Shown here: piece after piece, positions 8,706 through 47,571 of the stretch
How positions within the stretch are numbered: position 1 is the first letter of the stretch
Layout of the letters: every line of letters begins with the position of its first letter
IMG/VR virus record: IMGVR_UViG_3300005613_000006
Span: 32,001-96,000 of that record
Direction: 5' to 3' (one strand)
Source of the DNA: a virus
DNA: 64,000 nt
Made by a program: the position numbers and the translations under genes
Notes under the pieces: generated by a model
What the model was told of the DNA's origin: nothing
Databases searched by the model: none
Seen by the model: the letters and a program-made list of their open reading frames with translations, nothing else

Positions 8706-9824
8706 GTGGCTAATAACCGAATTTTCTACGCCTGCCAAAAAGCCGGAATCGCTCCTGCCGCGTCGTATGCGTTTCAGACTATCCGAGGTCTCCAAACCTT
8801 GGGTATCACAACGACATTCAACCTAGAGCAAGTGTTCGAGATTGGTCAACTGGCAATCTATGAAAATATCGAGGGTATTCCCGACGTGGAAGTTACCACC
8901 GAGAAAGTCATGGATGGGTACTCTCCTGTATACTGTCAAGCAACGCAGGGTTCTCCTGACTCTACGTTGGTTGGTCGCTCAAATTCTATCTGCAACCTTG
9001 GTGTTGCTATCTACGCTGACACAGCACAGTCTGCCTATGGCGCTCCTCTACAGGAAGTCCACATGTCGGGTATGTATGTGTCGAGCATTGGATACAACGT
9101 CACAGTTGATGGAAACGCTACTGAAAGTGTAACCCTCGTTGGTAACAACAAAGTGTGGGTTGGTGTCGCAGGCGAAAGCAACGGCACATTCACTGAAGTG
9201 GTTAATCCTGCTGGTGGTAGCATTCAGAATAACAATGACCAGCCAATGGCAATCAGCGGCTCTGGCGGTGTAAACCGTCGAGAGGACGTATTGTTTGGTT
9301 CAGACCTAGTTCGCCATACCATCTTGCCGCCTGAAATTCCAGGCATCATTGACAAGGGGTTGGGAAGTGGTACGAACGAGTTGGACGGCGACGGTCACTA
9401 CGGTGCCCACGTTCAATCCATAAACATTACCGCTGACCTTGGCCGTGAAGAGTTGTTTGAACTTGGTCGAAAGGGTACGTATCACCGATTCGTAACCTTC
9501 CCAGTTGAAGTTACAAGCGAAATCACCCTGATTGGTATTTCTGGTGACATGATTAGTGCCACTGAAGAAGGAATTTACCAAGTATCTGGTAGTGGTGCCG
9601 TTTGTGGTCGATACAACTTGGAAGACCAAGTAGTTATTCTGCGCTTGTGCGAAGGTCTACAGGTAGACTGCGGCAATAAGAACAAGCTGTCAACGGTCGG
9701 CGTGACAGGTGGAGATGCTGGTGGTGGAAACGTAGAAATTACGTACACCTACACGACATTCAACGACATGGATGTTCAGCACCCTCAAGACCCAGACGCA
9801 ACTACACGTCGAGTCATGCCGTAA
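8706..9824 (+). CDS. Major tail (tube) protein
   Basis: 372 aa, G/T/V-rich beta protein with its own promoter, strong RBS and terminator; precedes chaperones and tape measure; two related motifs (EQVFEIGQ / EELFELGR). Confidence 0.7.
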   Translation: MANNRIFYACQKAGIAPAASYAFQTIRGLQTLGITTTFNLEQVFEIGQLAIYENIEGIPDVEVTTEKVMDGYSPVYCQATQGSPDSTLVGRSNSICNLGVAIYADTAQSAYGAPLQEVHMSGMYVSSIGYNVTVDGNATESVTLVGNNKVWVGVAGESNGTFTEVVNPAGGSIQNNNDQPMAISGSGGVNRREDVLFGSDLVRHTILPPEIPGIIDKGLGSGTNELDGDGHYGAHVQSINITADLGREELFELGRKGTYHRFVTFPVEVTSEITLIGISGDMISATEEGIYQVSGSGAVCGRYNLEDQVVILRLCEGLQVDCGNKNKLSTVGVTGGDAGGGNVEITYTYTTFNDMDVQHPQDPDATTRRVMP

Positions 9825-25460: not shown

Positions 25461-28400
25461 ATGTCGTGTTGCGACTATAATCAAATAGGACCATTCGTAC
25501 AGACTTTGTTTTGTGGAGCCAGCGTCGTCAGTTTTTCTGCTAATGTAGGATGGGACGGCACAGGGGGTTCGCTGTCTGTCGTTGTGGCAGAGGACGATTG
25601 CCCAGGCGAGAAGCTGTACTTCGACGGAGATGGTATTCCTCAAATCCATACTGGGGCAGACCGTTTCAACCCTCCTCCGATTGGTAGTCCTATCTTCTTT
25701 GCCTACGGCACTTTTACCTTTGCCGGTATTGTCAAAAGATGGAACGAAAAAGACAGCGCGACTGGAGCCCTCGAATATCAAATAGAGGTCATGGACCCAA
25801 CCACCATTCTGGACGCTGCAAAGGTTATCCTTAAAGCATACGATGGTCCCACTTATGGCGTGCCCAACTTGGAGAATGTGTTTGGTTGGATTGAATCCAC
25901 ATATCCTAACTGCTATCAAGATGGTGCATTATCTACCGGACCACCTCGCGGTTTCAATCGCAGTCTATTTGACTGGTATCCACCAGCCGAAGGTTATGGT
26001 ACTGCCGTTACCAACGACGCTGGCATTTTGTGGAATCAGGCGCGAGGGGCTCTGATTGACACGATAAACTCTTCGGTTTCCCATGTGTACGGAGGAAACT
26101 TGAAGTATCGAAGTTACAATTATCAGGTTGACCTAACAGACCTCCCTTATTTAGACTCCAATGCATTCATTGGTGGCGATAGTATGAGCGTGTCTGACAT
26201 TATTCGCTATGTTTGTGAATACGCTGGAGCCCAATGGTTTGCAGAACTCATTCCTGTGTCTGGTGGTATTCCAGCGCCTCCCGGCACCAACCCAGAGGAT
26301 GAACTAGCTGGCCATGTTCGTCCTACTGTAGACCTGTATATCAAAATACGTGTTTCATATCGCAAGTTTGCCGAGGCGGGCGCTTTGGCGGTAGACGTAA
26401 ACACTGGTTCTCCTATCAGCAATCGTTTGGGTGCTGGTGCTTTGGGCGGATACATCGGAGACCCACAGTCTGGATGCAAGAGTGGACAGACGCGCGGCTT
26501 GGAATTGGCCGAACGCATTACCAACTCTTTCATGGTAGGAGAGTTTCGGAAAGACCTATGGCAAATTTCCTATGATGGTTCTTGCGATGGTTTTACAGAT
26601 ACCATTTGGCCCTACTGGGGAACAGACCCCGATTCGGGCGAATTGGTTTTGGGTAAGCAGTGCGTGTCGGCAGATAATGACATTGATATTCAAGACGAAG
26701 ATGACGACCACTACTTTGACATCAACATAGATTCTTGGGCGATTGACGGCTTGATTGGTCAGGGGCCATATAGAGTTGCGACTGGAGAGTTGCGGGCTGT
26801 TAAGGATGGCTACGACACCTGGGTAGCATACTTAGCTGCATACAAGGTTGCCATTTTACAAGCACTCAAACTGTCTCCAGAAATTGCTTTGTATGGTCTT
26901 GTTGGCGCTGTGCAAGATTCCGTCAACTCAGGTAAGATTAAGCCAGAGGATTTACAGGGGCCAACCAAGCAGTTTGTTGAATGGGCCGAAGGCCAAAACA
27001 TGAAGAATAATGTATTGGTAGACGCAAACGCTAAGCGTTTGTATGACCATTTGAACACGTATGCACAACAGTATTATGGTCAGAAATACTTGGTGAAATT
27101 ACCTTCTCTATGTACACGCGCCAACCCAAATTCTCTTTGGACAATTCAAACCAACTGGGAGCAAACTGCCTCTGCTTGGTACGAAGGGGCCGTGTTGGGC
27201 CTCGCTGCTGGCAGCCCTGGTTGGAATTGGTTTCGCGACGACGAAGGCCGCATTAAGTGTGTCACACGATTTGCCACTGGCAAACCAATGGACATTAGTG
27301 GCATCGACCTTCCTAAGATATGGGGAGATAACCTGTTTAACATTTGGCTAGAGGCTAGCGAAGAAGGAATTGTGTGGGGGCCTGATGGTGAGCCTCGTAT
27401 GATTATCAGATTAGAAGGCGGTCCAGTGACGCTTATCAATCAAGAAGCAATACCAAATCACTGGAAAATGACCTTGCGTATAATCAACAAGTTCAAAGGT
27501 GACCAAGCTGACCCGCCAATGACTGAACAAGAGTTCCAAGAGCTAATTGACATGGAGGGTATGGACATCAATCAATATGGTCTCCATCCACAGCCCCTCA
27601 TTCCATTGGCGGCAGCCATACCACTACAAAGTTCTAAATTGTGTTACGGTCCTTGGGTCGCCGGAACAGACCCAGCAGTAGGTCCAAGTGGCGCTACGAT
27701 TGCATCGGCTGGTGAAACCGAATACCAACGAGACACTTCGTTTGCCCCGTGGACATTCAGCGGAACGTCTTTGATGAATCTTGCTGGCTACGCCGCCGTC
27801 AATGCGAAGCTGAGCAACTACTACGTTATCGAACAGGGCAACATCAATGTGCCTGGGTCTCCATTATATCGACTAGGAGATACCCTTGTCTTGGGAGGCC
27901 CTGAGATTACTCGTATTGGAGTTGATGTTGGACGAGGAGCTGGTCCTGTTATGACCAATATCCAAGTCAAGACGTTTACCCCCGACTTTGGCAAGCGTGG
28001 TCAGGCATTTGTTGACTCCTTAAAACGCATGGGTAAAGCTGCTACCGCTATTCAATCAGCTAATCGCAAAGCATTTGCAGAGCGTTACAAAGACATAATG
28101 GAGGTATTCCGATTCAAGCTAACCATGCGGTACAAGAGTACCCGCGATGACAACCAAAGTTCTATGCACTTCTTTGGCGGCGAAGCCTTGGATGACCCCG
28201 ACAACGAATACTACACCCGACAAACAATGGCCATAACTGACTTGCGCAAAATTCTGCCCAAGTTGGGTGTCACGACAGGCGGCGGGGGGCGATACAAAGA
28301 GAAGGCCCTGGTTGAGGGTATCGGCTTATTCAGACCAATTAGCACCAAGGCCAACGACGCTGAATGCGGCAAGATGTCCACCTATGACACCAGCCCAGAA

Positions 28401-29852
28401 AGCGGTACTGGTAGTGACCGATTGAACCTAAGTAAAACCACTACTCTGTTCTACAGTAAGGAACAGACGCCTCCAGTTATGTGCCACGAAGACCACATGC
28501 CCATCGTAACTGGTACGCTGAGTCCATTCTTGAGCCCAGGCGGTAAGTCCATCAACGACGTGACAATGGCTCATGCTGATAGCGTTGGCCACGATATTGA
28601 ATACATCGTTCGCGATGGTACATTCCCAGCCCACCTACATATTCGTGAGAATCAGGCAAAGGATGACTATTCTAGCGACCACTGGTACAGAACAGTGGCC
28701 TTGCGTGGCCCACTCGTTTTGTCCGGTTGGGGTTTTGACATCGACAACAAGCCAATTCCAAACGCGGCTGATGGTGGCTCTGAACAAGAGGGCGGTAATA
28801 AAAAGATGCGCTTCCTCAAGAACTGGTTGCGCAAACCTCATACTTGGAAAACCGGGCCGGTTGACCTACGTTGGGATGATGAACGAAAAGTATGGACATG
28901 TGAACGCCCACACAAGATTATCCGCGCGGAACTCTGTGAGAATCTTCCGGCGTGCGGCTGCACAACGGCTAGCATGTTTGGTGAAACCATACAGTTGGAC
29001 AAAGAGGGTACGCAGATTAACTCTACCTGTACATGCGCCAGCGGCCAAATGCCTATCGTTATTCACAACCACGGCCACGGCAATTACCTCAAAGGTCAGA
29101 AAGTAGTGGCATATTGGGACACCACGTTGGAAGGCTACATATTATTGAAGGCTGACAAGCTGACGCTCAAGATTGAGTTTACAGAAACTATGACTGATAG
29201 CACTTCTACACCAGGGAAGGCCAAGATTGTTGACGTGTACGGCGACGAAAATTTGACTTGTACTCCAGAATGTGCAAGCGTCATCAATCAGGAAGTATCA
29301 GTTAAGAACGACATGTCCCATCCAATTTGTATAGGGGCAGTCGCTTATGCAGAAATCATTGGGTGGGATACGAGCAGTATCAAGTTTGTATCTGGTTGGA
29401 ACTCTTTCAGTAAAACGTGTTCGACTGTTTGTTCAGTATATGACAAGCCCGTAGTCATTGTCAAGCAAGCCCGCTTTGCTTCCCTTACTGTTGTTACTGA
29501 CATCAACCTCGTTGAGACTAGTGAGATTGTTGACTACAAGACGGCGACAGCTACGCTTGACCTATCTGATTGCACGATTGAATGTGAGGGTTCCGATTCT
29601 GACTATGGCTGTGATTGTGAATGCACGTTGAATTGTAGCGACATTGAGGTTACGATTACCTACGAGGACGACGAGATGCAATACGAACTCTGTGTCTGCA
29701 AGCGTCAAATCTACTTGCAGTCTGCGTGGAGTGTACAGAAGTGTGCTAAGGTCGATGTCGATGGTGGTGCCCCGACATTCCCAGCCCAGCCTTGGGACTT
29801 GCAGTGTGATTCTGGCGACGTAGATGAGGACTGTGATGGAGGTGGCAGCTAA
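25461..29852 (+). CDS. Large tail-tip/central spike-like protein with a Cys-rich C-terminus, 1463 aa
   Basis: N-terminal hub-like motif (FCGASVVSFS...GW......L.V...ED); GPLVLSGWGFDID.KP.P and WKTGPVDLRWD motifs; position. Confidence 0.6.
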   Translation: MSCCDYNQIGPFVQTLFCGASVVSFSANVGWDGTGGSLSVVVAEDDCPGEKLYFDGDGIPQIHTGADRFNPPPIGSPIFFAYGTFTFAGIVKRWNEKDSATGALEYQIEVMDPTTILDAAKVILKAYDGPTYGVPNLENVFGWIESTYPNCYQDGALSTGPPRGFNRSLFDWYPPAEGYGTAVTNDAGILWNQARGALIDTINSSVSHVYGGNLKYRSYNYQVDLTDLPYLDSNAFIGGDSMSVSDIIRYVCEYAGAQWFAELIPVSGGIPAPPGTNPEDELAGHVRPTVDLYIKIRVSYRKFAEAGALAVDVNTGSPISNRLGAGALGGYIGDPQSGCKSGQTRGLELAERITNSFMVGEFRKDLWQISYDGSCDGFTDTIWPYWGTDPDSGELVLGKQCVSADNDIDIQDEDDDHYFDINIDSWAIDGLIGQGPYRVATGELRAVKDGYDTWVAYLAAYKVAILQALKLSPEIALYGLVGAVQDSVNSGKIKPEDLQGPTKQFVEWAEGQNMKNNVLVDANAKRLYDHLNTYAQQYYGQKYLVKLPSLCTRANPNSLWTIQTNWEQTASAWYEGAVLGLAAGSPGWNWFRDDEGRIKCVTRFATGKPMDISGIDLPKIWGDNLFNIWLEASEEGIVWGPDGEPRMIIRLEGGPVTLINQEAIPNHWKMTLRIINKFKGDQADPPMTEQEFQELIDMEGMDINQYGLHPQPLIPLAAAIPLQSSKLCYGPWVAGTDPAVGPSGATIASAGETEYQRDTSFAPWTFSGTSLMNLAGYAAVNAKLSNYYVIEQGNINVPGSPLYRLGDTLVLGGPEITRIGVDVGRGAGPVMTNIQVKTFTPDFGKRGQAFVDSLKRMGKAATAIQSANRKAFAERYKDIMEVFRFKLTMRYKSTRDDNQSSMHFFGGEALDDPDNEYYTRQTMAITDLRKILPKLGVTTGGGGRYKEKALVEGIGLFRPISTKANDAECGKMSTYDTSPESGTGSDRLNLSKTTTLFYSKEQTPPVMCHEDHMPIVTGTLSPFLSPGGKSINDVTMAHADSVGHDIEYIVRDGTFPAHLHIRENQAKDDYSSDHWYRTVALRGPLVLSGWGFDIDNKPIPNAADGGSEQEGGNKKMRFLKNWLRKPHTWKTGPVDLRWDDERKVWTCERPHKIIRAELCENLPACGCTTASMFGETIQLDKEGTQINSTCTCASGQMPIVIHNHGHGNYLKGQKVVAYWDTTLEGYILLKADKLTLKIEFTETMTDSTSTPGKAKIVDVYGDENLTCTPECASVINQEVSVKNDMSHPICIGAVAYAEIIGWDTSSIKFVSGWNSFSKTCSTVCSVYDKPVVIVKQARFASLTVVTDINLVETSEIVDYKTATATLDLSDCTIECEGSDSDYGCDCECTLNCSDIEVTITYEDDEMQYELCVCKRQIYLQSAWSVQKCAKVDVDGGAPTFPAQPWDLQCDSGDVDEDCDGGGS

Positions 29853-33832: not shown

Positions 33833-33834
33833 CG

Positions 33835-37574: not shown

Positions 37575-37956
37575 CCTCATCCTCCCAGAGTTCAAAATTC
37601 CACGACCCATCTGGCGCGACCACCTTGCATGATTGAACGATGGTAGTAGTGCGAGTGCCTCCGTCGTCCAGTTTTTGGAATTCCATGTGCATACCCTTGC
37701 CAATGTGTCCAATTTTCAAACAAGAACCGCCCCATGTACAACCATTGAATCGTCTTTCGACTTCTTCCAAGTAGGTAGTTCCATTGCGAACTCGCACAAT
37801 GCCATTTGTTGGGTCTACGAAGGTAATTTCGTACACGTTGTTAAGTGTTTCGGCGTATAGCTTTGTGCCTTCCTCGAACTTGCACGTGTCAACGCAACCC
37901 TTTTCAGCTTTGGAATTTAGCTGTGCTTGTAGTTTCTTGTCAATATGGTCGCTCAT
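37558..37956 (-). CDS. Hypothetical phage protein
   Basis: 132-aa ORF overlapping both neighbours; ETLNNVYEI, GCTWGGS.LK.G.I..GMHMEF. Confidence 0.55.
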   Translation of the reverse strand: MSDHIDKKLQAQLNSKAEKGCVDTCKFEEGTKLYAETLNNVYEITFVDPTNGIVRVRNGTTYLEEVERRFNGCTWGGSCLKIGHIGKGMHMEFQKLDDGGTRTTTIVQSCKVVAPDGSWNFELWEDEDEDTV

Positions 37957-38696
37957 ATCATCCTCGCCTGCTCAAGTTCTTTGGGGGTATCCACTTCTGC
38001 AATCCGCATGTGCTGCGGCTCTATTGCGGAGAAGACTCCTCCTCTATTGATGACGTTGTTTAACACTTCGTACCCAAACCATTTCTCTGTTTCGGTATTG
38101 AAGACAGATGTTTCAAACAGGCGTAGTTCTTCGTCAATCAGGTAGACCATCTGGCCCCATTTAGTATCGAGACCATAGGACAGATTGGTGACTACACCTT
38201 CGTGCGTCTGTACTCCAACCTCTTCTGCCTTAAAGTGGTTCTTGGAATCCACCAGCAGGGCTGATGGACCAGTGGCCAATGTGCGAATCGCGTTGGCATT
38301 GAACACTAAATCTCCGTACACTATCAACACGCGCGGCGAGATAGTCGCTTGCATAGCCAGTTGTAAACTATATGCCACATTGGTGTCTTCGTAAAACGGG
38401 TTGGTGATGAAACGAACCGGCATAATGCCGCGAAATTGTTTCCTCACCTTGTCTCCCTGGAACCCAATAACAACAACGATTTCAGCTTGTGGATACTCTG
38501 CCCACAGCATTTTCAGTTGGCGTTCCAGTATTGTTATGCCCCGGTTTAATGACAGCAGAGCCTTGGGGCCAAGCGACTTCATGCGCTTGCCTACGCTCGC
38601 TGCCGGAATTATGATAGTTAAGGCGTCGTTATTGCTTGAACTTGGGGCTACCCTCTTCGTAGAGGTAATGTGTCGTGAAGCACTATTGTTGCCCAT
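37953..38696 (-). CDS. NTP-transferase (LicC-like phosphocholine/sugar-phosphate nucleotidyltransferase)
   Basis: IIPAASVGKRMKSLGPKALL, VVIGF, NP.Y..TN...SL, IVYGDLVF, EVDTPKEL. Confidence 0.8.
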   Translation of the reverse strand: MGNNSASRHITSTKRVAPSSSNNDALTIIIPAASVGKRMKSLGPKALLSLNRGITILERQLKMLWAEYPQAEIVVVIGFQGDKVRKQFRGIMPVRFITNPFYEDTNVAYSLQLAMQATISPRVLIVYGDLVFNANAIRTLATGPSALLVDSKNHFKAEEVGVQTHEGVVTNLSYGLDTKWGQMVYLIDEELRLFETSVFNTETEKWFGYEVLNNVINRGGVFSAIEPQHMRIAEVDTPKELEQARMI

Positions 38697-39492
38697 GTCT
38701 CTCCCTTAGTTTTCGTTGCACAGTTTGCCAGTCTTCTCTCCAGCGGGCTTCCTTTACGGTGTCAGTTGCGTTGAAGCCTGTCACGGTGTAGACTTGCAAC
38801 GCTTCTGGAATATGGATAGCTGCATAGCGTTCGGTAATCCGCAGCCACAAGTCCCAATCTTCACACGTTCGTAAATCCTCATCATATACTCCAACTTCAT
38901 CCAAAGCCTTCTTGCTGATAAGCGGTGAGTTGGAAATGATGTTCTCTCTCTCAAGTTTCGAGCGATGAAACGGCTGGCGAAATTCGTGCATTATGACGCC
39001 AGTGTGCAGATTGTTAATCAGTACATCGCTGTATACCATGCCAATACGGTCGGTATCTTTAACCCACTGGTCGATGGATTTCTGTAGTTTGCCGGGGAGC
39101 CATTCATCGTCAGCATCGAGGACGCCGTATACGTCAGTCATGTTCCAGCCAAACTTGATGCCGATATTGCGAGCCGCCGAAGGCCCGGTCGGCTGCTCAT
39201 TGCGGAAGAGGTATACTGGCCGATTGTCTACCAGTCCACCCAAGACGTTCTCCAACGGAGTCTCTATATATTCCTCAAAGAGTTCACAGACACGCTCATG
39301 TGAGTTGTCTTCGGAGCCATCGTCTATGACGCACACAATCAAGTGGTCAAACTCTTGCTGTGTGGCACTTTGAATGGCTTGTTGTACGAAGTCGGCGTGG
39401 TTATGGCATGGGATTACCACGCACACAATCGGTTCTAGCGGCTTGGCATCGTCGGGACGATTTCCTCGACCGGCTTTATTAGATACTGACAT
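38683..39492 (-). CDS. Glycosyltransferase family 2
   Basis: VVIPCHN, IDDGSED, GPSAARNIG, LDADD, EDWDLWLR. Confidence 0.9.
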   Translation of the reverse strand: MSVSNKAGRGNRPDDAKPLEPIVCVVIPCHNHADFVQQAIQSATQQEFDHLIVCVIDDGSEDNSHERVCELFEEYIETPLENVLGGLVDNRPVYLFRNEQPTGPSAARNIGIKFGWNMTDVYGVLDADDEWLPGKLQKSIDQWVKDTDRIGMVYSDVLINNLHTGVIMHEFRQPFHRSKLERENIISNSPLISKKALDEVGVYDEDLRTCEDWDLWLRITERYAAIHIPEALQVYTVTGFNATDTVKEARWREDWQTVQRKLRERHGQQ

Positions 39493-40244
39493 TCTTGTTT
39501 CTCCGCTACTTTCTCAATCTTTTCAATGGCGTTTGTGTCGTCAATGCTCCCACGAACCAACTTCACGGTATTTCGCTGTAGAACAAAACCGTTGCCGTCG
39601 TCTAATCCTTTCAATACCAAGAAGCGCTGGAGTTGGTCATTCAGGAAGCTGTCAATGCAATACAGGAAGTTGTCGGGCGGCTCGTAGCCTGCGTAGAACA
39701 GGGCGAAGTATGTCGTCTTTGACTTTTGGGTAGCCAAGTCGATGTACTGCAAGTGCCCCTTCTTTTTACCCATGATAACTTCAAACTGCCAGGGTATTTC
39801 CAACGTGTTTGCCCAGTGGAAAAAATCGCTGGGGCGAATGTGTGGGTACGTCAGGAATATGATGCGATTTGGTTTTACTCTACCTCTCTTTAATGCTTCA
39901 ACTGTGCGAAGGGCATCGTCCAGAGTTTCATCTAAGCCAATAACAACCACAGCATCACACCGAAACGTGACTTCCTTACGGACTGCCACAGCACACTGGT
40001 CGAAATCAAGCAACTGTTTGTCGGTTGCCCACTTCTGAGGTCGGCAGTAGACGCACACACGTCCAGGCAACGTGTTGTATGTACGACCGTTCACGTCGGT
40101 TATCTCTTTGATTTTCGCGCCCTGGTCACGATAACGCTCCAGCACACGCATCTGACAGCCAACCTGTTTCTCGTCTTCCCAATCGACAAAAACACACTCA
40201 CTACAGATTGTCTCTACTTGTTCTTGTTCGTATTTTGCACTCAT
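39435..40244 (-). CDS. Hypothetical protein (Cys-motif N-terminus, degenerate GT-A-like C-terminus)
   Basis: CSECVF..GC...C.YCR; inside the sugar cluster. Confidence 0.45.
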   Translation of the reverse strand: MSAKYEQEQVETICSECVFVDWEDEKQVGCQMRVLERYRDQGAKIKEITDVNGRTYNTLPGRVCVYCRPQKWATDKQLLDFDQCAVAVRKEVTFRCDAVVVIGLDETLDDALRTVEALKRGRVKPNRIIFLTYPHIRPSDFFHWANTLEIPWQFEVIMGKKKGHLQYIDLATQKSKTTYFALFYAGYEPPDNFLYCIDSFLNDQLQRFLVLKGLDDGNGFVLQRNTVKLVRGSIDDTNAIEKIEKVAEKQECQYLIKPVEEIVPTMPSR

Positions 40245-40720
40245 GGTCTTTTAGCCTCCACGATGAAATGGTATCCTGTGACACGCTTTTTGATGATAGT
40301 CAATCCCATTGTCGCAAGAAAATTTGATAGACCCAAAGCTGTCAGCGTTATCTTCTTGACAAACTGTGGATTATCGGCGGCGTGTCCGTGCAAATGCGCG
40401 TTGGCTTGATGCACGTCAATCGCATAGGTTGTGAAACCCTTGCAGACCTCATACAAGTCGGTGCCTCCGATAATAAGTGTGCCACCGTGGCGCAGTTTGG
40501 CAACCCAGTGTGACAGTACATCCATCACAATATCTGCTGGCAGATAATCAATCACGTCGTTGGCAACGATTTCTGTGGCCTCGGCGTCGTCCACCCACGC
40601 ACTAAGTTTGAATGTTGGGTCACCAATCTTGAGTTCGTCCGTTTCCTCGGTAGCAAATGGACTGACATTTAGGTAACCGCTTCGCGGTTCCTCTTCTGTG
40701 TACAACAGGTTTATTCTCAT
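40241..40720 (-). CDS. Class I SAM-methyltransferase-like protein
   Basis: GYLNV, EIVANDVIDYL, W..KLRHGGTLII, VEAKRP; probable start MRINL. Confidence 0.6.
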   Translation of the reverse strand: MRINLLYTEEEPRSGYLNVSPFATEETDELKIGDPTFKLSAWVDDAEATEIVANDVIDYLPADIVMDVLSHWVAKLRHGGTLIIGGTDLYEVCKGFTTYAIDVHQANAHLHGHAADNPQFVKKITLTALGLSNFLATMGLTIIKKRVTGYHFIVEAKRP

Positions 40721-41727
40721 AGCGTCACCGCCTTCCTGAATATCTCGTCCCACTTATGTGTGAATCTTTCTAGCGAGAACTTCTCTTCTACAGTTCTACG
40801 TCCTGCCTCCCCAATCTCACGCGCCATAGTTGGGTTGTCCAACAGGGTTTGTGTGTACGCGCGCAACTCTTGAAGGTCGTTCGACACGAATCCATTGACT
40901 CCATGCTCAATCACAATCTCAGGAATGAGACACGTCGCCGTGGACACTACCGGAGTACCACACGCCATCGCTTCCAGAATAACAGTAGGAAGGGAGGACA
41001 CGGTTGTTGTGTTGAGGTAGACCGAGGCGGTGTTGTAGGCTTCAATCAGGGCCTCGACCGACTCAGCCGGTTCGGACAATCCTGGTGTACCGCCCAAAAC
41101 CTTGACTGGAATTATCGAGCCCTTGCCGGTAACTTGCTCCCAGATACGGTAGCCACAGCACCAATCCCTATTTATCCAGTCGTTACACACCGACAAAACT
41201 ACCTTTTCACGCTCCATATCCAGCGGTCGGAACATTTCCAGGTCAAGACCAGTGTGGTTCACTTCGCCGTGGTCGTCTGGGAAGCCCCAGGCTTGGCGAC
41301 CGTACTCGCTCACGAACACGTCAATGTCGCCACTCATTTCCCTGGCTTGCGCCTTCTGGACCTCAGTGTATTCCGGCATGGGCAGTGTATGTTCCATACT
41401 GATAAGTGGCACCTTCAATAGGTTGGATAACGCCTGCCCATACTGGAATTGTCCTACTTTGTTTTGTGATAGTATCACGTCAATGTCAACCCAGTGTGGA
41501 ATCTGGTCGTCGCCCATGCGCGAATCAAGCAGCATGTAGTTGGGTGGCACCGGAGCGTAGTCTTTGTTCCAGTCCTTAATCCCTTCTGCTCTCCACGCAT
41601 AGAAGTTGTGACCACACTGACACATCATGGTTTCGTAGCGCTCATGCGTCGGAAACGTCAGGATGTTCAAGGGTTCATCTTCGCCGCGCGTGGCGTAGCG
41701 AAGGAGTGTGTGTATTTGACTTGGCAT
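40717..41727 (-). CDS. Glycosyltransferase family 4 (GT-B)
   Basis: VFVSEY, GLDLEMFRP, LPTVILEAMACGTPVVST, IEHGVNGF, IGEAGRRTVEEKFS. Confidence 0.9.
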   Translation of the reverse strand: MPSQIHTLLRYATRGEDEPLNILTFPTHERYETMMCQCGHNFYAWRAEGIKDWNKDYAPVPPNYMLLDSRMGDDQIPHWVDIDVILSQNKVGQFQYGQALSNLLKVPLISMEHTLPMPEYTEVQKAQAREMSGDIDVFVSEYGRQAWGFPDDHGEVNHTGLDLEMFRPLDMEREKVVLSVCNDWINRDWCCGYRIWEQVTGKGSIIPVKVLGGTPGLSEPAESVEALIEAYNTASVYLNTTTVSSLPTVILEAMACGTPVVSTATCLIPEIVIEHGVNGFVSNDLQELRAYTQTLLDNPTMAREIGEAGRRTVEEKFSLERFTHKWDEIFRKAVTL

Positions 41728-42063
41728 TCAATCTTCCTTCCTGTGAATCTGCAACATACGACCATCTTGCAAAGCAATTTCTCCTGGTCTCTTTCCATGC
41801 CCACAACAACTTCCCCTCATATCAATGCCTGCGGCTTGTAGCGCGGCTACTATTGGGGCAACACATGCGTCGATTTGTGCAAATTTCCATTTTTCTTTTC
41901 CGGTACAACTTAGGTCGGCGGGAATCTTGACGTATACACCAACGGGCTGTTTTCCACATCGCTTACACGGGCGAACACCGGCTGTTTCACCTGTGTCTAC
42001 CCAGACCCATTGTGAACCATTCCACACAATTTCATGTCCGTGTGATTCGCTAGTTGCTGTCAT
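41728..42063 (-). CDS. Hypothetical Cys-rich protein (IDxC...AL...GI....SCCGH motif)
   Basis: RPCKRCGK plus IDACVAPIVAALQAAGIDMRGSCCGHG. Confidence 0.55.
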   Translation of the reverse strand: MTATSESHGHEIVWNGSQWVWVDTGETAGVRPCKRCGKQPVGVYVKIPADLSCTGKEKWKFAQIDACVAPIVAALQAAGIDMRGSCCGHGKRPGEIALQDGRMLQIHRKED

Positions 42064-42542
42064 TGAAAATCTGCTTTTAATATCCTCTTGGCCGCTTCTC
42101 TATCCATCATTGCAAGGCTCAAATCTACGTTATGTTCTTCCCAGCCGTAAAAGCCAGCACGTCGCGGTTCGCCTATCCCAAATACTTTTTGAACAGCGGC
42201 TTCACTGACAATACCGTGGTCTCTAGCCAGTAGGATTTCCCTTCGAGTCTGCTCATCCATTTGGTCACACCCCCAGAGGCGCATCTCTTCCATTGCCTCG
42301 GGGCTAACGAACAAGTCGTTTAACTTTGAGGTATCTGGTTGGGGCAGCTTGGCAGTACGCTCAAGAATCTCTCGTAGCTCTTGCTTAGATAGAGTCCGAC
42401 AATCACATAGGAGACCTGGGCCAGGATTGGGGTTCCACCCATCATCAGTCACAACCACCTTCGGTGTTTCTTCGGCCTTGACCAGCGCTGCCGGTGCAAG
42501 CAGGGCAGCCACACAGGCTTTGAGAAAGTTACGTCTTTGCAT
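42060..42542 (-). CDS. Tat-signal protein carrying major-capsid-protein-derived segments
   Basis: MQRRNFLK plus hydrophobic h-region plus VKA; aa 73-108 match MCP 201-236 (26/36 identical) and aa 127-137 match MCP 310-320 (10/11). Confidence 0.8.
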   Translation of the reverse strand: MQRRNFLKACVAALLAPAALVKAEETPKVVVTDDGWNPNPGPGLLCDCRTLSKQELREILERTAKLPQPDTSKLNDLFVSPEAMEEMRLWGCDQMDEQTRREILLARDHGIVSEAAVQKVFGIGEPRRAGFYGWEEHNVDLSLAMMDREAAKRILKADFQ

Positions 42543-43134
42543 GGTCTTTGTCCTTCAAAAAGTCTAACGGAAACTCAGGACAAGCCATAGGCGGAAGCCG
42601 TTGAATGTCAAACCCTTTTGTGTCCTCAACAAACTGCATGTAGTCTGCTACATATCTATCAGCGGCTTTCTGGTCCACAATCTCAATCTCCGAAGTAACC
42701 TCTACCGGAAAGTCTACCATTCGGTGGTACGGCGCGCGGCGTCCAAGTTCCCAAAGTTCTTCCCTCTCCATCTGTTCGACTGTCTTCCACTGATGGTGAG
42801 CAAGCATGTCTGAAAATTCACCATCGGGCACTATACATTTGTCAATGTCCTCCTCTTTGAAGACGGCGTTAGGGCGATAGTCTTGATATACGCGCTCACA
42901 CTCTTCCAAAAACGCTTTCAGTCCCTCGTTGGCATGGTTTGTTGCCTCGATATTCTTCTCGAAACTCTTTCTCAGCAGACTCATAGCCCGCTCAACACCC
43001 TCCCACCGTGGTTCTTTGACGTTATCCAGCACAAAATCAACTGGTGGTTCAGGCTTTGCAGTCACGGTCTTGACCAACGCTAGCGGAGCCAGCAGGGCAG
43101 CCGCCGCAGCCTTTAGGAAACCTCTTCGTTCCAT
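42529..43134 (-). CDS. Tat-signal protein carrying tail-tube- and MCP-derived segments
   Basis: MERRGFLK plus h-region; aa 124-150 match tail tube 247-273 (21/27), aa 33-60 match MCP 116-143 (12/28), aa 180-193 match MCP 62-75 (10/14). Confidence 0.8.
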   Translation of the reverse strand: MERRGFLKAAAAALLAPLALVKTVTAKPEPPVDFVLDNVKEPRWEGVERAMSLLRKSFEKNIEATNHANEGLKAFLEECERVYQDYRPNAVFKEEDIDKCIVPDGEFSDMLAHHQWKTVEQMEREELWELGRRAPYHRMVDFPVEVTSEIEIVDQKAADRYVADYMQFVEDTKGFDIQRLPPMACPEFPLDFLKDKDHAKT

Positions 43135-44378
43135 TTGTCTATTCCTTCGATGCTGTGTTGTTGAGTTACGTCTACCAGTCTCCCCTTGCCAGACCAGTAT
43201 TGATAATATGGTCCTTTACTCCCCAGTTCTCCCTCAAGGGCTTCCTTCATTTGCTCGCCCACCGCTTGATAGGAGAAGTCATAAGCGCGGTCAATACCAA
43301 TGTCAGCCCTTTGTTTTCTTTTATCCTCCTGCTCGAACGCTTCACGCATGGCTCTCTGCAATCCGCGAATGCTGATGCTTTCCCAATTCTCGTTTCCTTG
43401 GAAAAGGTCGGGCATGATGTTGTCGGCGGTCATACCGAAACAGGGCTCTGTGTGTGTGGGAACCAACCACCCGCCCAAACCGCCACCCTTTTCTCCAGCG
43501 GGTCGGTAGATGAATTCGCTCATGCCTCCAACTTGAGAACAGATTGGAGTCTTTCCCATTGCCATAGCGTCAAACGCTGGGATACACCAGCTTTCACCAT
43601 AGGACGGCATCACGAAGCAGTCACACGTATTGTGTAGCATCATCATCTTCTGTTCGTCAAACCGTTGCGTGATGATGATTTCGCCAAGGAAATCATCCTC
43701 GTTGGGATACAGCTTCAACTCTCGTTTGATTTGGACACAGATTTCCTGCACATGTTTGTCGCACTCGCCAGCGGGCATACCGCTTAGATTAGCCTTAATC
43801 ACTAGCGTAACAGGCTCCGACTTACGGAATTCTAAATGATAGGCTTTCAGCAGAGCGGCCAAGTTCTTGCGCCTCGTCACTTCGCCAATCGTGTAGAACA
43901 CAAACTTGCCGCGAAGTTGTGGTATCTTGATTTTCTCGTAGTGACGAGCATACTTGCTTGGGTCACATGGAACTGGCATCACACGCATTGGTCTTTGAAC
44001 ATAACTGTTGGTCGAAGCGCGTAGCATTTGTTCATTGCATACCCATGCTTCATCCATCAAGTTCAATCGCTCGGCCCAGAAGGCGTTGCGGAAGTGGCTG
44101 GTTTCACTATGGAACAACCCGATATTCTTATCAAAGTGTCCACAGTAATCCATCATGTGTGGCAGTATATGTTGAATCACAACATCACAGCCTTCATCAC
44201 TCTGGGCTTCCAGTTCTACGATACGCTCTGGCACTTCAACCTCGGCGTCGTTCAACTTGATTGGTCGAGGCACAACCTCAACGCCTGCGGCATCCAGTGC
44301 GAGGATGTAGTTTTCAGCCGCGTGACTCCATCCGGTGCCATCTCGATAAACACCCAAAAATAAAACTTTATTTGACAT
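43113..44378 (-). CDS. Glycosyltransferase family 4
   Basis: TGWSHAA..Y..AL, FYTIGE..RRKNL, DCFVMPSYGESWCIPAFDAMAMGK. Confidence 0.88.
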   Translation of the reverse strand: MSNKVLFLGVYRDGTGWSHAAENYILALDAAGVEVVPRPIKLNDAEVEVPERIVELEAQSDEGCDVVIQHILPHMMDYCGHFDKNIGLFHSETSHFRNAFWAERLNLMDEAWVCNEQMLRASTNSYVQRPMRVMPVPCDPSKYARHYEKIKIPQLRGKFVFYTIGEVTRRKNLAALLKAYHLEFRKSEPVTLVIKANLSGMPAGECDKHVQEICVQIKRELKLYPNEDDFLGEIIITQRFDEQKMMMLHNTCDCFVMPSYGESWCIPAFDAMAMGKTPICSQVGGMSEFIYRPAGEKGGGLGGWLVPTHTEPCFGMTADNIMPDLFQGNENWESISIRGLQRAMREAFEQEDKRKQRADIGIDRAYDFSYQAVGEQMKEALEGELGSKGPYYQYWSGKGRLVDVTQQHSIEGIDKWNEEVS

Positions 44379-44919
44379 GTTGAGTTACCTTCTTGCACAA
44401 TGCGACGAATTCATCATGTGTTAGATTCCATTTCATCGTCTGGATTGATTTGTATATCCAATGGATGTTATTTTTAGTGTAGCCTTTAGAAGAGTCGATG
44501 CGGTCTAATGACGCCAAGTTGTCTTTTTTGTTATCTCTTTTTGTTACACCCTTGGGTAGCGTTAAGCATAAGCCAGTATATGGACAAACGCCACCTTGTT
44601 TTATCCACTGTTTCCATAAGTCTTTTGGCATCACTTTGACAGCAATATCTCGCTTATTGGCATTTCGTTGGACACGATTAAAGTATGCGCCATATATCCC
44701 TTCGTGTCCAGAAAATCCAGATGCGTTTTTACCGCGAGATAGACAACCACAGCTTCGTGTTTTGTTGCCAGTTAAGTGATACTTCTTAACTTCTGTAGTA
44801 TTGCCACATTCACATTGACATAACCACCATTCGTGTCGCTTGCGTGTTTTTGCTATTTTGATTGCTGTTAATAGACCAAACTTCTGACCAGCAATGTCTT
44901 TCCAATTCTTGTGTCTCAT
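44368..44919 (-). CDS. HNH-family homing endonuclease
   Basis: GQKFGLLT, WLCQCECG, RSCGC, CPYTG, ASLDRIDSSKGY...NIHW; AT-rich. Confidence 0.85.
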   Translation of the reverse strand: MRHKNWKDIAGQKFGLLTAIKIAKTRKRHEWWLCQCECGNTTEVKKYHLTGNKTRSCGCLSRGKNASGFSGHEGIYGAYFNRVQRNANKRDIAVKVMPKDLWKQWIKQGGVCPYTGLCLTLPKGVTKRDNKKDNLASLDRIDSSKGYTKNNIHWIYKSIQTMKWNLTHDEFVALCKKVTQHVK

Positions 44920-44927
44920 TGTACTTC

Positions 44928-44974
44928 TCCGTGTTGATGTAATGTACCCAATATATTATACACCAAACTACGGA
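44928..44974 (-). promoter_or_regulatory. Promoter TGGTGTATAAT (44965-44955) within an RBS-sequestering hairpin
   Basis: Minus strand TCCGTAGTTTGGTGTA pairs with TACATCAACACGGA, covering most of the RBS GGAG. Confidence 0.65.
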
Positions 44975-44983
44975 CTGGGGACA

Positions 44984-45406
44984 TTATTTGAGAACCTCAA
45001 GAACCTCATCCATGTTGATGCAAATATGGTCACACATTTTGACCATCAACTCTGGTTCACCATTGTCCAAAAGTAGGATGGTGAACTTGCCAGCCCCGGC
45101 TCCCCAACCCAGTTCAAGCGAAGCCGACCGACCAAACGGCTGTACCGCCACGATAGTGTCGCACCATTCCAGCGCGTCCATGTCTCGCGCGAAACCGAAT
45201 TCTGCAAGGTGGTGCGTCAATTTGTCCCGATACTGTTCCGGTGTCCACGACTGCCAGTCTGGGTCAATTTGTGACCAATGAAATCCGCTGTCGCCTTGAC
45301 GTGGATGGCGGAAATCGTATACATCATGCCCAGCGTTGTGAAGTAGTCGCACTACTTCGGGTTGGCGTTCATTGCGCCATGAACTTGCTACGTAAATCTT
45401 ACTCAT
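44984..45406 (-). CDS. Nucleoside 2-deoxyribosyltransferase-like (NDT/DNPH1-like) protein
   Basis: KIYVASSWRN, F..D..AL..CD, GRSA.LELGW..G.GK. Confidence 0.65.
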   Translation of the reverse strand: MSKIYVASSWRNERQPEVVRLLHNAGHDVYDFRHPRQGDSGFHWSQIDPDWQSWTPEQYRDKLTHHLAEFGFARDMDALEWCDTIVAVQPFGRSASLELGWGAGAGKFTILLLDNGEPELMVKMCDHICINMDEVLEVLK

Positions 45407-45407
45407 G

Positions 45408-45833
45408 TTACACCTGTGCGTGAAATGGGTCTAGCCCTTGGTCTCGTAAAATGGCACAGCCTTGCATGAGCGGGGCGGGCACATGTTCCCACCTGTACCA
45501 ATCCCAATACTCACACTTGTCTTTCTCCATCACTTTCGGTTCTCCCTCTATGTAATCACAAACATAGAAGAGAACTACGTAATGTTTTCCTTCGTCGTAA
45601 AAGCGGGTGTTGGTCATCGCCCAAAACTTAGGATGAGTAACCTTTATATCTTCCCCGGCCTCTTCGCGTAGCTCTCGAATGGCTGTCTCGGCAGGGTCTT
45701 CCCACATTTCCAAGTGGCCTCCAGCAAAGGCGTGAGTCCCTGGCGCATGGTCCCCTTTACGTTTGTGCATCAGCACACTACTATCCGAATGACGACGAAC
45801 CACACACGCAACTCCAACTAATGGCCTATCCAT
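45408..45833 (-). CDS. Nudix hydrolase (NUDT15/MutT-like)
   Basis: Nudix box GGHLEMWEDPAETAIRELREEAG; RP.VGV, KHYV, EP...E..KC..W.W. Confidence 0.9.
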   Translation of the reverse strand: MDRPLVGVACVVRRHSDSSVLMHKRKGDHAPGTHAFAGGHLEMWEDPAETAIRELREEAGEDIKVTHPKFWAMTNTRFYDEGKHYVVLFYVCDYIEGEPKVMEKDKCEYWDWYRWEHVPAPLMQGCAILRDQGLDPFHAQV

Positions 45834-47571
45834 TACTTGCTTCCTTTTTGTTAGCGATGAACAACGGCTTCGACATTGCCAGTCTTGCTGTCCTTCTTTC
45901 TTCCCACTTCGTATCCAACTGATTGTAATGTATCATCTTGTGAACAGCATCTTCCGCAGTGAACGGAAGATAGTGGTTCTTGTTTGCCAACAGACTACCC
46001 TCGTTGAACTTGGTGTCACCAGTATCAGTAATGGCAAAGCCGTAGTTCAAGTCTCGCATCATCTTGAGGGCCGCATAGCTGGTTACCATGTCTGGCCGTC
46101 CCCAAATGTTGGCAAAGCCCCATGTTACCAGTTGCTCGTAGCTAAGCCCCTGTGGTATCTTCAAATCAGGCTGGTGAATGCGAGCGGGCGAGTCCCATGT
46201 CTTGGCTTGGTCGGGCACTTCCAGACTGTCAAAGTATTTTTCCCATACCTTGGCTGTCTTATCCCACGAATAGTGTTTTCGCGCAGCTTTATATGTCTCG
46301 CGACCCCTTTTCAACCTCATTGCTTCTGGCTGGCGCAGAAACTTGGACAACTGGGTTATCAAGTCTCGGTTGTCAGGCACAGCCCGGTACGCATGTGTCT
46401 CAGATTCGCGTGTGACACACAAGGGCTTAATCGGAATGCCCTTGACGTTGCGAAGCACAGACGACATAGCCGAATAATCAACGGCCATGATGGGCACACC
46501 ACAGGCGGCTGCTTCCAACTGGGGCATACCGAAGCCTTCACAGATGGAGTATTGTACATACACGTCCATTACGTTGAGTATGTCGGACAGTTGTTCTTTA
46601 CTCACGCCAGCTTGAGTGCTGGGCAACTCAGCCTTGGGTCTACCGCAGTTGAGACAGGTCGTCCTGGCGTCTTGGAAGAACAGCGGTTGTACATTTCCAC
46701 AGTGGCTACACACATAGGTGAATAGAACTTTGTGGCCAAGGTGTTCCTCTCGCAGCAAACGTGGCATGTCCCAACCTATATCGGGATAGCTCGTATGAAT
46801 GTAGAGAAATGTGCGGTCGGCCAACGCCGGGTTTTCTTCCAGCATGATGCGGAATGAACGAAGCAACTCAGCATACATTTTGCGCTTCTGGTTCCGCATA
46901 ACGGTTCCTACAATCAGCACCTTGTCTTTGAAGGCCATCATGGACTTGTGCTGGGCTTTGTTGCGCACTGGTTTCAGCACATCAAAGTCGGCGGCTGGCG
47001 GCGCAAGGGCAAACACCTTGCCGATTCTAGCGTTTTGAATCTCGGTGTTCCAGGCGGTGCCGGGCACAACAATCTCTTTGCCTTCCAATACATCGCGACC
47101 AAATTCGCTGTAAGCACACAAGGCATCGGCGTTGCGGTAGCTGTATACCCAACGGTCGGGCAGCGGCGCAGAGTCAACTGTGGGCATGATTACCCACTTG
47201 TAGAAGTCTCGGAACGGAGAATGCTCTGCAAACTCCATCATCCACCAATCGCGTATGTCCCACACCACGTCTGGTCGGAAGTCCAAACAGGTTTCCTCGA
47301 ACTTCCAGCATCCGAACTGGTTTAGATTGCTGGCAAGGTAGGTGTCTTCATCGTCGGGCGTGTCGGGCAAGTTACCATAGAACGTCCAGGGGATGCTTAG
47401 CCGTCGCTTGTCATTCCAGTGTCCGTAGCTAGCCAACTCTGCTATCTCGTACTTGCCAGTCTCATGTAGACGAGACAATACCTCTCGGTCGTATACTCCA
47501 TATCCTGTGTTGAGGTAAGCCGCCTCACCGCACCAGAGTATCCTAAGTTTCCTTTTGTTCTTCGTCGTCAT
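45826..47571 (-). CDS. Glycosyltransferase family 4 with a Zn-ribbon insert
   Basis: TGYG, VMRNQKRK, CSHC..CLNC, EGFGMPQLEAAACGVP, YSWDKTA. Confidence 0.88.
   Translation of the reverse strand: MTTKNKRKLRILWCGEAAYLNTGYGVYDREVLSRLHETGKYEIAELASYGHWNDKRRLSIPWTFYGNLPDTPDDEDTYLASNLNQFGCWKFEETCLDFRPDVVWDIRDWWMMEFAEHSPFRDFYKWVIMPTVDSAPLPDRWVYSYRNADALCAYSEFGRDVLEGKEIVVPGTAWNTEIQNARIGKVFALAPPAADFDVLKPVRNKAQHKSMMAFKDKVLIVGTVMRNQKRKMYAELLRSFRIMLEENPALADRTFLYIHTSYPDIGWDMPRLLREEHLGHKVLFTYVCSHCGNVQPLFFQDARTTCLNCGRPKAELPSTQAGVSKEQLSDILNVMDVYVQYSICEGFGMPQLEAAACGVPIMAVDYSAMSSVLRNVKGIPIKPLCVTRESETHAYRAVPDNRDLITQLSKFLRQPEAMRLKRGRETYKAARKHYSWDKTAKVWEKYFDSLEVPDQAKTWDSPARIHQPDLKIPQGLSYEQLVTWGFANIWGRPDMVTSYAALKMMRDLNYGFAITDTGDTKFNEGSLLANKNHYLPFTAEDAVHKMIHYNQLDTKWEERRTARLAMSKPLFIANKKEASNG

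What the first reader, a model, noticed from the sequence alone, without database searches (positions are those of the whole stretch)
42132..42326. 160-aa Tat protein joins two distant MCP segments
KLNDLFVSPEAMEEMRLWGCDQMDEQTRREILLARD (42326-42219) versus MCP 201-236 KLTDLYVSPEAMEDMRDWGVDQIDEITRREIYTAAD is 26/36 identical. RRAGFYGWEEH (42164-42132) versus MCP 310-320 RRAGFYGWGEH is 10/11. The 73 MCP residues between these blocks are replaced by an 18-aa linker. Inference: the two segments may be neighbours in the folded capsid protein, so this ORF could rebuild a conformational surface in miniature.
Basis: partly seen in the sequence, partly recalled or inferred. Interest (0 to 1): 0.8.

Follow-up and report, generated by a model that had tools for sequence, protein, structure and literature searches.

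The report
Tat-tagged protein built from capsid pieces
A small gene of an uncultured 173-kb tailed phage joins an export-type (twin-arginine) leader to two short pieces copied long ago from the phage's own coat protein; it belongs to a large family, found in no paper I searched, that shuffles coat and tail pieces behind the same leader, and its function is untested.

Summary
Observation confirmed. ORF 42060-42542 (-) encodes 160 aa: a twin-arginine leader, then block 1 (26/36 identical to major capsid protein, MCP, 201-236; BLASTP E 9e-15) and block 2 (10/11 to MCP 310-320; 0 of 1000 shuffles exceed 8/11). Synonymous sites are saturated while replacements are few, so the leader and blocks are old and kept by selection. 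The MCP model failed, so distances could not be measured. Two predictors give no confident compact fold, and block 2 is low-confidence. The 81 leader-bearing relatives behave as strings of independent blocks. About half are 64-110 aa with block 1 alone. Block order is permuted. Other members carry tail-tube and tail-tip pieces. In a close relative (86% flanks) genes B and A are replaced by one hybrid gene without block 2. The neighbouring gene B and a third gene in this genome have the same design. My best reading is a modular, Tat-directed mimic of conserved virion-protein segments made from the early/middle operon; the target is unknown, and a decoy for a host factor is inferred only. The scan noted this design before in other phage groups. 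No paper found.

The parts
42060..42542 (-). Gene A: 160-aa leader-plus-MCP-block protein (P0002); its start overlaps the end of gene B by 14 nt, with AAGGA 9 nt upstream of the ATG
   Evidence: syntenic orthologue P0006 in L107
42474..42542 (-). Twin-arginine-type leader, residues 1-23: RRNFLK, a weakly hydrophobic Ala/Leu/Pro stretch, and V-K-A with a basic residue in the c-region
   Evidence: read from the sequence; 17/23 identical to the leader of gene B; pN 0.14 against pS 0.89 versus the orthologue; RR invariant in 81 relatives, 35 of which match TIGR01409
42327..42473 (-). Fast-evolving region, residues 24-72; a predicted helix at 48-64
   Evidence: pN 0.61 versus the orthologue; AlphaFold2 secondary structure
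42219..42326 (-). Block 1, residues 73-108, copy of MCP 201-236 (26/36). The conserved core is MCP 204-232.
   Evidence: S208, D214, W218, D224 and T227 are kept at 90% or more in both MCPs and leader proteins
42165..42218 (-). 18-residue linker, residues 109-126, opening with a family-recurrent G-I-V-S motif
   Evidence: 7 of 81 proteins against 0.06 in shuffles; similarity to MCP 268-285 is not significant
42132..42164 (-). Block 2, residues 127-137, copy of MCP 310-320 (10/11)
42063..42131 (-). Tail, residues 138-160, probably a degenerate MCP C-terminus (321-335) with a small insertion
   Evidence: placed there by alignments through P0006, P0007 and P0009; not significant on its own
42529..43134 (-). 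Gene B: 201-aa paralogous leader protein (P0003). Blocks: 42955-43041 resembles MCP 115-143 (41%); 42676-42765 resembles tail tube 247-276 (70%); 42556-42597 resembles MCP 62-75 (10/14), which is out of MCP order.
   Evidence: Pfam TAT_signal E 0.032, below its cut-off
2678..3685 (+). Major capsid protein, source of the blocks (201-236 = 3278-3385; 310-320 = 3605-3637)
8706..9824 (+). Tail tube protein, 372 aa; source of the tube block in gene B and, in relatives, of N-terminal and 115-151 blocks
   Evidence: gene order before the tape measure protein; Atlas structure TM 0.76-0.92 to Phi812_tail_tube and Phage_tube_2 clusters; block matches
25461..29852 (+). 1463-aa tail-tip protein downstream of the tape measure; its residues about 1061-1145 are the source of a further block used by relatives and by the third leader gene of this genome
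41728..42063 (-). 111-aa Cys-rich gene directly downstream, conserved next to the leader genes in three phages

Best explanation
Shown: gene A is a real gene under selection. It lies in the same minus-strand gene block as the early/middle (replication and sugar-metabolism) genes, on the strand opposite to the virion genes; co-transcription with them is inferred from position, since no expression data were obtained. Its product is a twin-arginine-type leader followed by a string of short modules. Two of these modules are ancient copies of MCP 201-236 and 310-320(-335). It belongs to a family of at least 81 sequence clusters (50% identity) in uncultured phages. In that family the same leader precedes one to five blocks copied from the MCP, the tail tube and a tail-tip protein, in variable number and order.

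Inferred: the blocks act as separate, largely linear mimics of conserved virion-protein segments, not as one folded surface. The leader directs them to the Tat translocase, so they end up in the periplasm or held at the membrane. There, or on the way, they engage whatever normally recognises those segments. I think the most likely target is a host factor that senses or binds conserved virion proteins, which would make A a counter-defence decoy produced before the real virion proteins appear. The target, the export and the effect are all untested.
For: - Gene reality and selection: synteny B-A-111-aa gene in L107. pS is saturated (0.76-0.89) with pN 0.14 in the leader and 0.06-0.27 in the blocks, against 0.61 in the spacer.
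- Same constraints as in the MCP: the positions conserved in MCPs (S208, D214, W218, D224, T227) are also 90% or more conserved in 78 leader-protein copies. The retained MCP parts are not simply the most conserved ones: 0.67 and 0.52 against 0.57-0.60 for the deleted parts.
- Modularity: members with a single block; permuted order in 7 of 7 proteins with two or more separate MCP matches; tube and tip blocks. There is a hybrid B/A gene in a phage whose flanks are 86% identical.
- No confident compact fold.
- Leader: RR invariant in 81 of 81; 35 match TIGR01409 and 17 match formate_TAT.
- Early/middle context: SSB, DNA polymerase III alpha, NUDIX and glycosyltransferases here; RNA ligase, PNKP, HNH and RecA in relatives.
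- Patchy, accessory distribution, as is typical of conflict genes: present in G000 and G001, absent from nine related contigs including one complete 173-kb genome.
- From established knowledge: short MCP segments can act in trans on host defence (the Gol peptide of T4 gp23 with the Lit protease), and MCP and tail tube are known triggers of abortive-infection sensors (CapRel, DSR2).
Against: - No target is known, and no tool here can show export.
- A itself does not reach any Tat HMM at E 0.1.
- Known sensors of virion proteins are cytoplasmic, and binding usually activates them, so a decoy could be harmful unless it binds without activating or removes the sensor.
- If the proteins are truly periplasmic, MCP pieces have no obvious partner there, because capsids never enter the periplasm.
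- The host is unknown; the MCP relatives sit in aquatic metagenome bins of many phyla.
- Block 1 is predicted as a helical hairpin. It could have been reused merely as a stable building block.
Confidence: 0.4

Rival explanations
1. One reading: the two blocks are neighbours in the folded MCP, and gene A rebuilds that patch as a miniature folded domain (a cut-down A-domain of the HK97 fold) that presents one conformational surface.
For: At least ten relatives fuse block 1 almost directly to the MCP C-terminus block, as expected if MCP 237-309 is an excursion whose ends lie close together. From general knowledge of the HK97 fold, the C-terminal strand returns to the A-domain sheet, where the strand that precedes the block-1 helices also lies. 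A colinear truncated MCP paralogue (55421-55936, 36% identity over MCP 134-301) shows a possible intermediate.
Against: Block 2 and the tail have pLDDT below 50, and the ESM model scores 0.47. There is no structural match. Many members carry block 1 alone, some have the reverse order, and the close relative L137 has lost block 2. The adjacency can also be explained by common descent from a deleted MCP half.
Confidence: 0.15
2. An envelope-acting superinfection-exclusion factor. The exported string of virion-protein pieces binds parts of an incoming related phage (tail tip, tube end, tape measure or ejected proteins) in the periplasm and blocks DNA entry, by analogy with Ltp of TP-J34, Imm/Sp of T4 or Llp of T5.
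For: An export-type leader; early/middle operon; tail-tube and tail-tip blocks in gene B, in the third leader gene and in many relatives; accessory distribution.
Against: The commonest cargo is MCP, and gene A carries only MCP pieces. The capsid does not enter the periplasm, so A has no evident partner there. No similarity to any known exclusion protein was found.
Confidence: 0.15
3. A membrane-tethered or cytoplasmic modulator of assembly. The leader acts as an uncleaved anchor, and the MCP and tube pieces compete with full-length subunits, poisoning the capsid or tail assembly of co-infecting relatives or timing the phage's own assembly.
For: The blocks keep MCP-invariant residues. The pieces come from the two most abundant self-assembling virion proteins.
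Against: The blocks are most like the phage's own MCP clade, so the phage would poison its own assembly. This reading does not explain why a twin-arginine motif should stay invariant.
Confidence: 0.1
4. A relic without function: leftovers of MCP duplications and illegitimate recombination that happen to remain open.
For: Rapid rearrangement between close relatives, patchy presence, and low-confidence structure.
Against: Saturated synonymous sites with few replacements in the leader and blocks. Orthologues at 40% identity keep the leader, the block and the synteny. At least 81 clusters share the design.
Confidence: 0.05

Closest known systems
Twin-arginine (Tat) signal peptides of bacterial periplasmic proteins (TIGR01409, PF10518)
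   Same: An N-terminal RRxFLK motif, a short weakly hydrophobic h-region with Pro, a basic residue in the c-region and a V-K-A end. 35 of 81 relatives match TIGR01409.
   Different: The gene is phage-encoded. The passenger is not a cofactor enzyme but a string of virion-protein pieces with no confident fold. A itself is below every HMM threshold. Export is untested.
HK97-fold major capsid proteins (NF042927; PDB 6wkk Gp27) and truncated or specialised MCP paralogues such as T4 gp24
   Same: Blocks 1 and 2 are homologous to MCP 201-236 and 310-320 and keep MCP-invariant residues.
   Different: Only about 50-65 of the 335 MCP residues are represented. The N-arm, E-loop, spine helix and most of the P domain are missing, so it cannot form a shell subunit. 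It carries an export-type leader.
Gol peptide of T4 gp23 with the Lit protease of prophage e14 (from memory, not tested here)
   Same: A short internal segment of an MCP that is biologically active on its own, outside the capsid context.
   Different: Gol is part of the MCP gene and triggers a host defence. Here the segment is a separate, selected phage gene with a leader. There is no sequence relation.
Exported phage superinfection-exclusion proteins (TP-J34 Ltp, T4 Imm/Sp, T5 Llp) (from memory)
   Same: Small phage proteins made early and directed to the cell envelope, with accessory distribution.
   Different: Those proteins use Sec or lipoprotein signals or membrane helices, and they are not built from the phage's own virion proteins.
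Phage counter-defence proteins that occupy a sensor's trigger site, such as DSAD1 against DSR2 (from memory)
   Same: The proposed logic is the same: engage the site that recognises a virion protein without the full trigger.
   Different: DSAD1 is not a fragment of the trigger and has no export leader. No sensor is known here.

Membership tests
Tat signal peptide | Consecutive arginines within an (S/T)-R-R-x-F-L-K-like motif near the N-terminus | tested here: met
   M-Q-RRNFLK at residues 1-8; RR invariant in 81 of 81 relatives
Tat signal peptide | A short, weakly hydrophobic h-region followed by a c-region with a small-x-small site, often with a basic 'Sec-avoidance' residue | tested here: met
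   A 13-residue Ala/Leu/Val/Pro stretch, then V-K-A before two Glu; assessed by eye, because no signal-peptide predictor is available
Tat signal peptide | Match to the curated models TIGR01409 / PF10518 at their cut-offs | tested here: not met
   A has no hit at E 0.1. Gene B matches PF10518 at E 0.032, 14.6 bits against a cut-off of 22.7. 35 of 81 relatives match TIGR01409 at E 0.1 or better, best 1.4e-4.
Tat signal peptide | Tat-dependent export, abolished by RR-to-KK or in a tatC mutant | not testable with these tools
   Needs an experiment
HK97-fold major capsid protein | Full fold: N-arm, E-loop, P domain with spine helix, A domain | tested here: not met
   A aligns only to MCP 200-236 and 310-320(-335); no capsid family hit; no fold match
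Leader-plus-virion-block mosaic proteins (undescribed family defined here) | A twin-arginine leader followed by one or more short blocks homologous to virion proteins of the same phage group | tested here: met
   A. Family: 137 profile hits, of which 81 are small proteins with the leader. Sources of the blocks: MCP, tail tube and tail tip.
Leader-plus-virion-block mosaic proteins (undescribed family defined here) | Purifying selection on the leader and blocks, with fast-changing spacers and architecture | tested here: met
Superinfection-exclusion or counter-defence proteins | A demonstrated effect on infection by a second phage or on a defence system | not testable with these tools
   No cultured host or phage; no match in PHROGs or Pfam

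The most novel reading that the evidence does not exclude
The Tat leader is the point of the design. Tat is the one pathway that moves folded proteins and their bound partners ('hitchhiking'). Early leader-tagged copies of the conserved MCP, tube and tip segments could therefore capture the host proteins that recognise those segments, and drag them out of the cytoplasm or pin them at the translocase before the real virion proteins are made. That would be a general counter-defence by eviction. The shuffled block arrays would then record which virion epitopes local hosts sense.
Probability: 0.1. Interest if true: 0.95.

Novelty: categorically new. Interest (0 to 1): 0.7.

Why it matters
If these proteins are mimics, their blocks mark the exact segments of capsid, tube and tip proteins that something in the cell recognises. 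That would be a map, written by the phages themselves, of the virion features that matter in phage-host or phage-phage conflict. The MCP family concerned is very abundant in aquatic metagenomes: more than 5,000 clusters at 90% identity. Earlier notes of this scan report the same leader-plus-capsid-piece design in T4-like, N4-like and giant phages, so the principle would be general. I found no described class of phage-encoded Tat substrates with such a cargo. It can be tested directly with reporter export assays and pull-downs.

Tried and rejected
1. AlphaFold2 of the MCP with 29 relatives gave pLDDT 34, which is unusable, so the distance between MCP 201-236 and 310-320 was not measured. The tools also return no coordinates.
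2. AlphaFold2 of mature A gave only a moderately confident helical stretch. Foldseek against the PDB found no match. The Atlas model of A is low-confidence with no meaningful neighbours.
3. Complex prediction of MCP plus mature A returned 'no answer' (score 0.01). This is no evidence either way.
5. tblastn of A against GenBank phages found no match. A pattern scan of IMG/VR with A found none. Searches of ten related large contigs with A or its profile found only their MCPs.
6. Similarity of the linker to MCP 268-285, and of the tail to MCP 321-335, is not significant on its own.
7. Closer tracking of the phage's own MCP (co-evolution) is only weak: block 1 scores 26/36 with its own MCP against 16-25 with others, and block 2 scores 10/11 with its own MCP and with two others.
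8. The idea that only the most conserved MCP parts remain recognisable is rejected: retained and deleted parts are similarly conserved.
9. A link to the surrounding glycosyltransferase cluster is not general: relatives sit among RNA-repair and recombination genes.
10. Host assignment from MAG titles is uninformative, since many phyla appear and the contigs are probably mis-binned phage.
11. No promoter or terminator signal above chance lies around the genes.
12. Seven literature searches found no description. The paper behind PDB 6wkk was not found.
13. A covariation analysis of the MCP was not attempted, because only about 200 rather similar sequences were accessible.

Full report
**The observation**

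ORF 42060-42542 (minus strand) encodes 160 aa. The major capsid protein (MCP) is not the 330-aa ORF at 4461. It is 2678-3685 (+), 335 aa. It was identified by phrog_2522 major head protein (E 1.9e-5), by NF042927 HK97-fold MCP (E 3e-8, below its cut-off), and by a profile match to PDB 6wkk Gp27 MCP (E 1e-11).

- Block 1 (ORF residues 73-108) is 26/36 identical to MCP 201-236. BLASTP gives E 9e-15.
- Block 2 (residues 127-137) is 10/11 identical to MCP 310-320. With block 1 masked, 1000 shuffles never exceeded 8/11.

**Age and selection**

At the DNA level the blocks are only 62% identical to the MCP gene. Third codon positions are near random (15/36), and half of the identical residues use different codons. 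By Nei-Gojobori counts, pS is 0.82 for block 1 and 0.61 for block 2 (0.76 for both together, near saturation), against pN 0.27 for block 1 and 0.06 for block 2. The copies are therefore old and have been held at the protein level. They are not a recent recombination patch.

Against the only close-architecture orthologue (P0006), the values differ by region:

| Region | pN | pS |
|---|---|---|
| Leader | 0.14 | 0.89 |
| Block 1 | 0.26 | 0.68 |
| Residues 24-72 | 0.61 | 0.84 |

P0006 is 40% identical to A and lies on the 1,056-bp contig L107. L107 keeps the same gene order: a B-like leader gene, an A-like gene, and the 111-aa downstream gene.

**The leader**

The N-terminus reads M-Q-RRNFLK, then a 13-residue Ala/Leu/Val/Pro stretch, then V-K-A. 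That is the twin-arginine pattern, including a basic residue in the c-region. A itself reaches no Tat HMM at E 0.1. The neighbouring gene B gets PF10518 at E 0.032. Among 81 relatives RR is invariant, 35 match TIGR01409 and 17 match formate_TAT. Export itself is an inference.

**More of the same in this genome**

- Gene B (42529-43134, 201 aa) overlaps A by 14 nt and has a leader 17/23 identical to A's. It carries pieces like MCP 115-143 (41%), like the 372-aa protein at 8706-9824 residues 247-276 (70%), and like MCP 62-75 (10/14), the last out of MCP order.
- The 372-aa protein is the tail tube. It lies before the 3,289-aa tape measure, and its Atlas model matches tail-tube clusters at TM 0.76-0.92.
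- A third leader gene lies outside the window (genome 134435-134851). It carries an MCP 68-95-like piece and a piece of the 1,463-aa tail-tip protein.
- A colinear truncated MCP paralogue without a leader lies at 55421-55936 (36% identity, E 1e-26).

**The family**

A profile of A plus P0006, searched against 1.84 billion representatives, returned 137 proteins. About 20 are full-length MCPs. 81 are small proteins (64-252 aa) with the leader.

- They are strings of recurring blocks: MCP 62-112, 111-150, 166-192, 199-236, about 256-295 and 309-335; tail tube 1-15, 115-151 and 224-276; tail tip about 1061-1145.
- About half carry block 1 alone and are complete genes inside their contigs.
- All seven members with two or more separate MCP-derived matches have them out of MCP order.
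- The core of block 1 (MCP 204-232) keeps S208, D214, W218, D224 and T227 at 90% or more in both MCPs and leader proteins. The flanking MCP-invariant L202 and T203 are not kept.
- The MCP parts retained in A are not simply the most conserved ones.
- The '18-aa linker' opens with a motif that follows block 1 in other members (7 of 81 proteins against 0.06 expected).
- A's tail aligns through relatives with the MCP C-terminus.

A is therefore best described as a leader, a variable spacer, and an MCP C-terminal half that has lost its internal parts.

**Turnover**

In L137 the flanking glycosyltransferase gene is 76% identical in DNA to this window, and the 111-aa gene with the next gene 86%. There, B and A are replaced by one 129-aa hybrid. 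It has B's leader and spine-helix block, 85 nt of A around the start of block 1 (85% identical), a B-like piece, and A's last residues. Block 2 is absent.

The design is patchy among relatives. A 125-kb relative (G001) has at least five leader genes with other cargoes, including a copy of the head gene next to its MCP. Nine other related contigs, one of them a complete 173-kb genome, have none detectable.

**Structure tests**

- Mature A, folded with a 42-row alignment, gave mean pLDDT 58. Helices around block 1 scored 72-82. Block 2 and the tail scored below 50.
- Foldseek found nothing, and the Atlas model of A has pLDDT 0.47.

None of this supports a compact miniature domain. Low confidence is not proof of disorder.

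**Context**

A and B sit in a long run of minus-strand genes, probably one operon. It contains five glycosyltransferases, an epimerase, a nucleotidyltransferase, NUDIX, SSB and DNA polymerase III alpha, and lies opposite the virion module. Relatives sit among RNA ligase, PNKP, HNH and RecA genes. The common denominator is a position among early/middle-type genes, not sugar metabolism; expression timing was not measured. No promoter or terminator stands out.

**Interpretation**

The descriptive conclusion is firm: A is a selected, leader-tagged, modular copy of MCP pieces and a member of a large shuffling family. The mechanism is inferred.

- I favour independent linear mimics of conserved virion segments directed to the Tat machinery. 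A host recognition factor is the most likely target.
- Arguments for this: the blocks keep the MCP's own constrained residues; the number and order of blocks are free; the cargo spans the proteins that known defences sense; the genes are accessory and fast-changing; and they are placed to be made before the virion proteins.
- Arguments against: no partner is known, a periplasmic location fits MCP pieces poorly, and a decoy might trigger a sensor.
Each is weighed in its own section.

**Novelty**

Seven full-text searches found no description, and no library family covers A. Earlier notes of this scan report the same design on other DNA, in T4-like, N4-like and giant phages, and the broader system on this window. 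I treat those notes as leads. The parts concerning this genome I re-derived independently here.

Noticed in passing
window 55421-55936 (-): A 171-aa leaderless paralogue colinear with MCP 134-335 (36% identity over 170 aa, E 1e-26). It lies between a PD-(D/E)XK nuclease gene and replication genes, and may be an intermediate on the way to the leader proteins.
   Followed up: partly
G000:C1:134435-134851 (-), outside the window: A third twin-arginine-leader gene (138 aa). It carries an MCP 68-95-like block (15/28) and a block resembling residues about 1076-1095 of the 1,463-aa tail-tip protein.
   Followed up: partly
G000:C1:21078-21794 (-), outside the window: A 238-aa ORF without a leader. Its residues 144-180 resemble tail tube 115-151 (43%, E 1.6e-7). 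The same tube block recurs in leader proteins P0027 and P0030.
   Followed up: no
window 41728-42063 (-): A 111-aa Cys-rich protein (CxxC ... CCGHG) directly downstream of A. It is conserved in that position in L107 and L137. Its only hit is weak, to phrog_12958 of unknown function. It may be a functional partner of the leader genes.
   Followed up: partly
L137:462-851: In a close relative (flanks 76-86% identical in DNA), one 129-aa hybrid gene replaces B plus A. It combines B's leader and spine-helix block with the start of A's block 1 and A's C-terminal residues.
   Followed up: yes
L109:1223-1876 and 2029-2733: Two adjacent leader genes in another phage together carry most of the MCP in shuffled order (C-terminus, 38-110, 172-192, 200-236, 111-150), plus a tail-tube block.
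   Followed up: partly
G001 (record of L002): 95173-95370, 100719-100991, 100991-101356, 106981-107586, 121803-122396: A 125-kb relative has at least five leader genes. One is the leader plus a near full-length copy of the roughly 165-aa head gene that lies next to its MCP. One carries MCP 76-96 and one carries MCP 256-292.
   Followed up: partly
window 32867-47571 (-): A large sugar-metabolism cluster in the early/middle operon: NAD-dependent epimerase/dehydratase, an NTP transferase, GT2, three GT1/GT4-type enzymes (one matching 'GT4 in conflict systems') and NUDIX. Its target (DNA, virion or host envelope) is unknown.
   Followed up: no
window 12566-22435 (+): A 3,289-aa tape measure protein, which implies a very long non-contractile tail. 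The MCP family of this phage has more than 5,000 clusters at 90% identity in public metagenomes, on contigs up to 235 kb.
   Followed up: no
L108:2426-2848 and L110:3909-4166: Directly upstream of the leader-mosaic gene in two other phages lies another small secreted-type protein. The two share a motif around C-I-H-V-M-N, whose origin was not traced.
   Followed up: no
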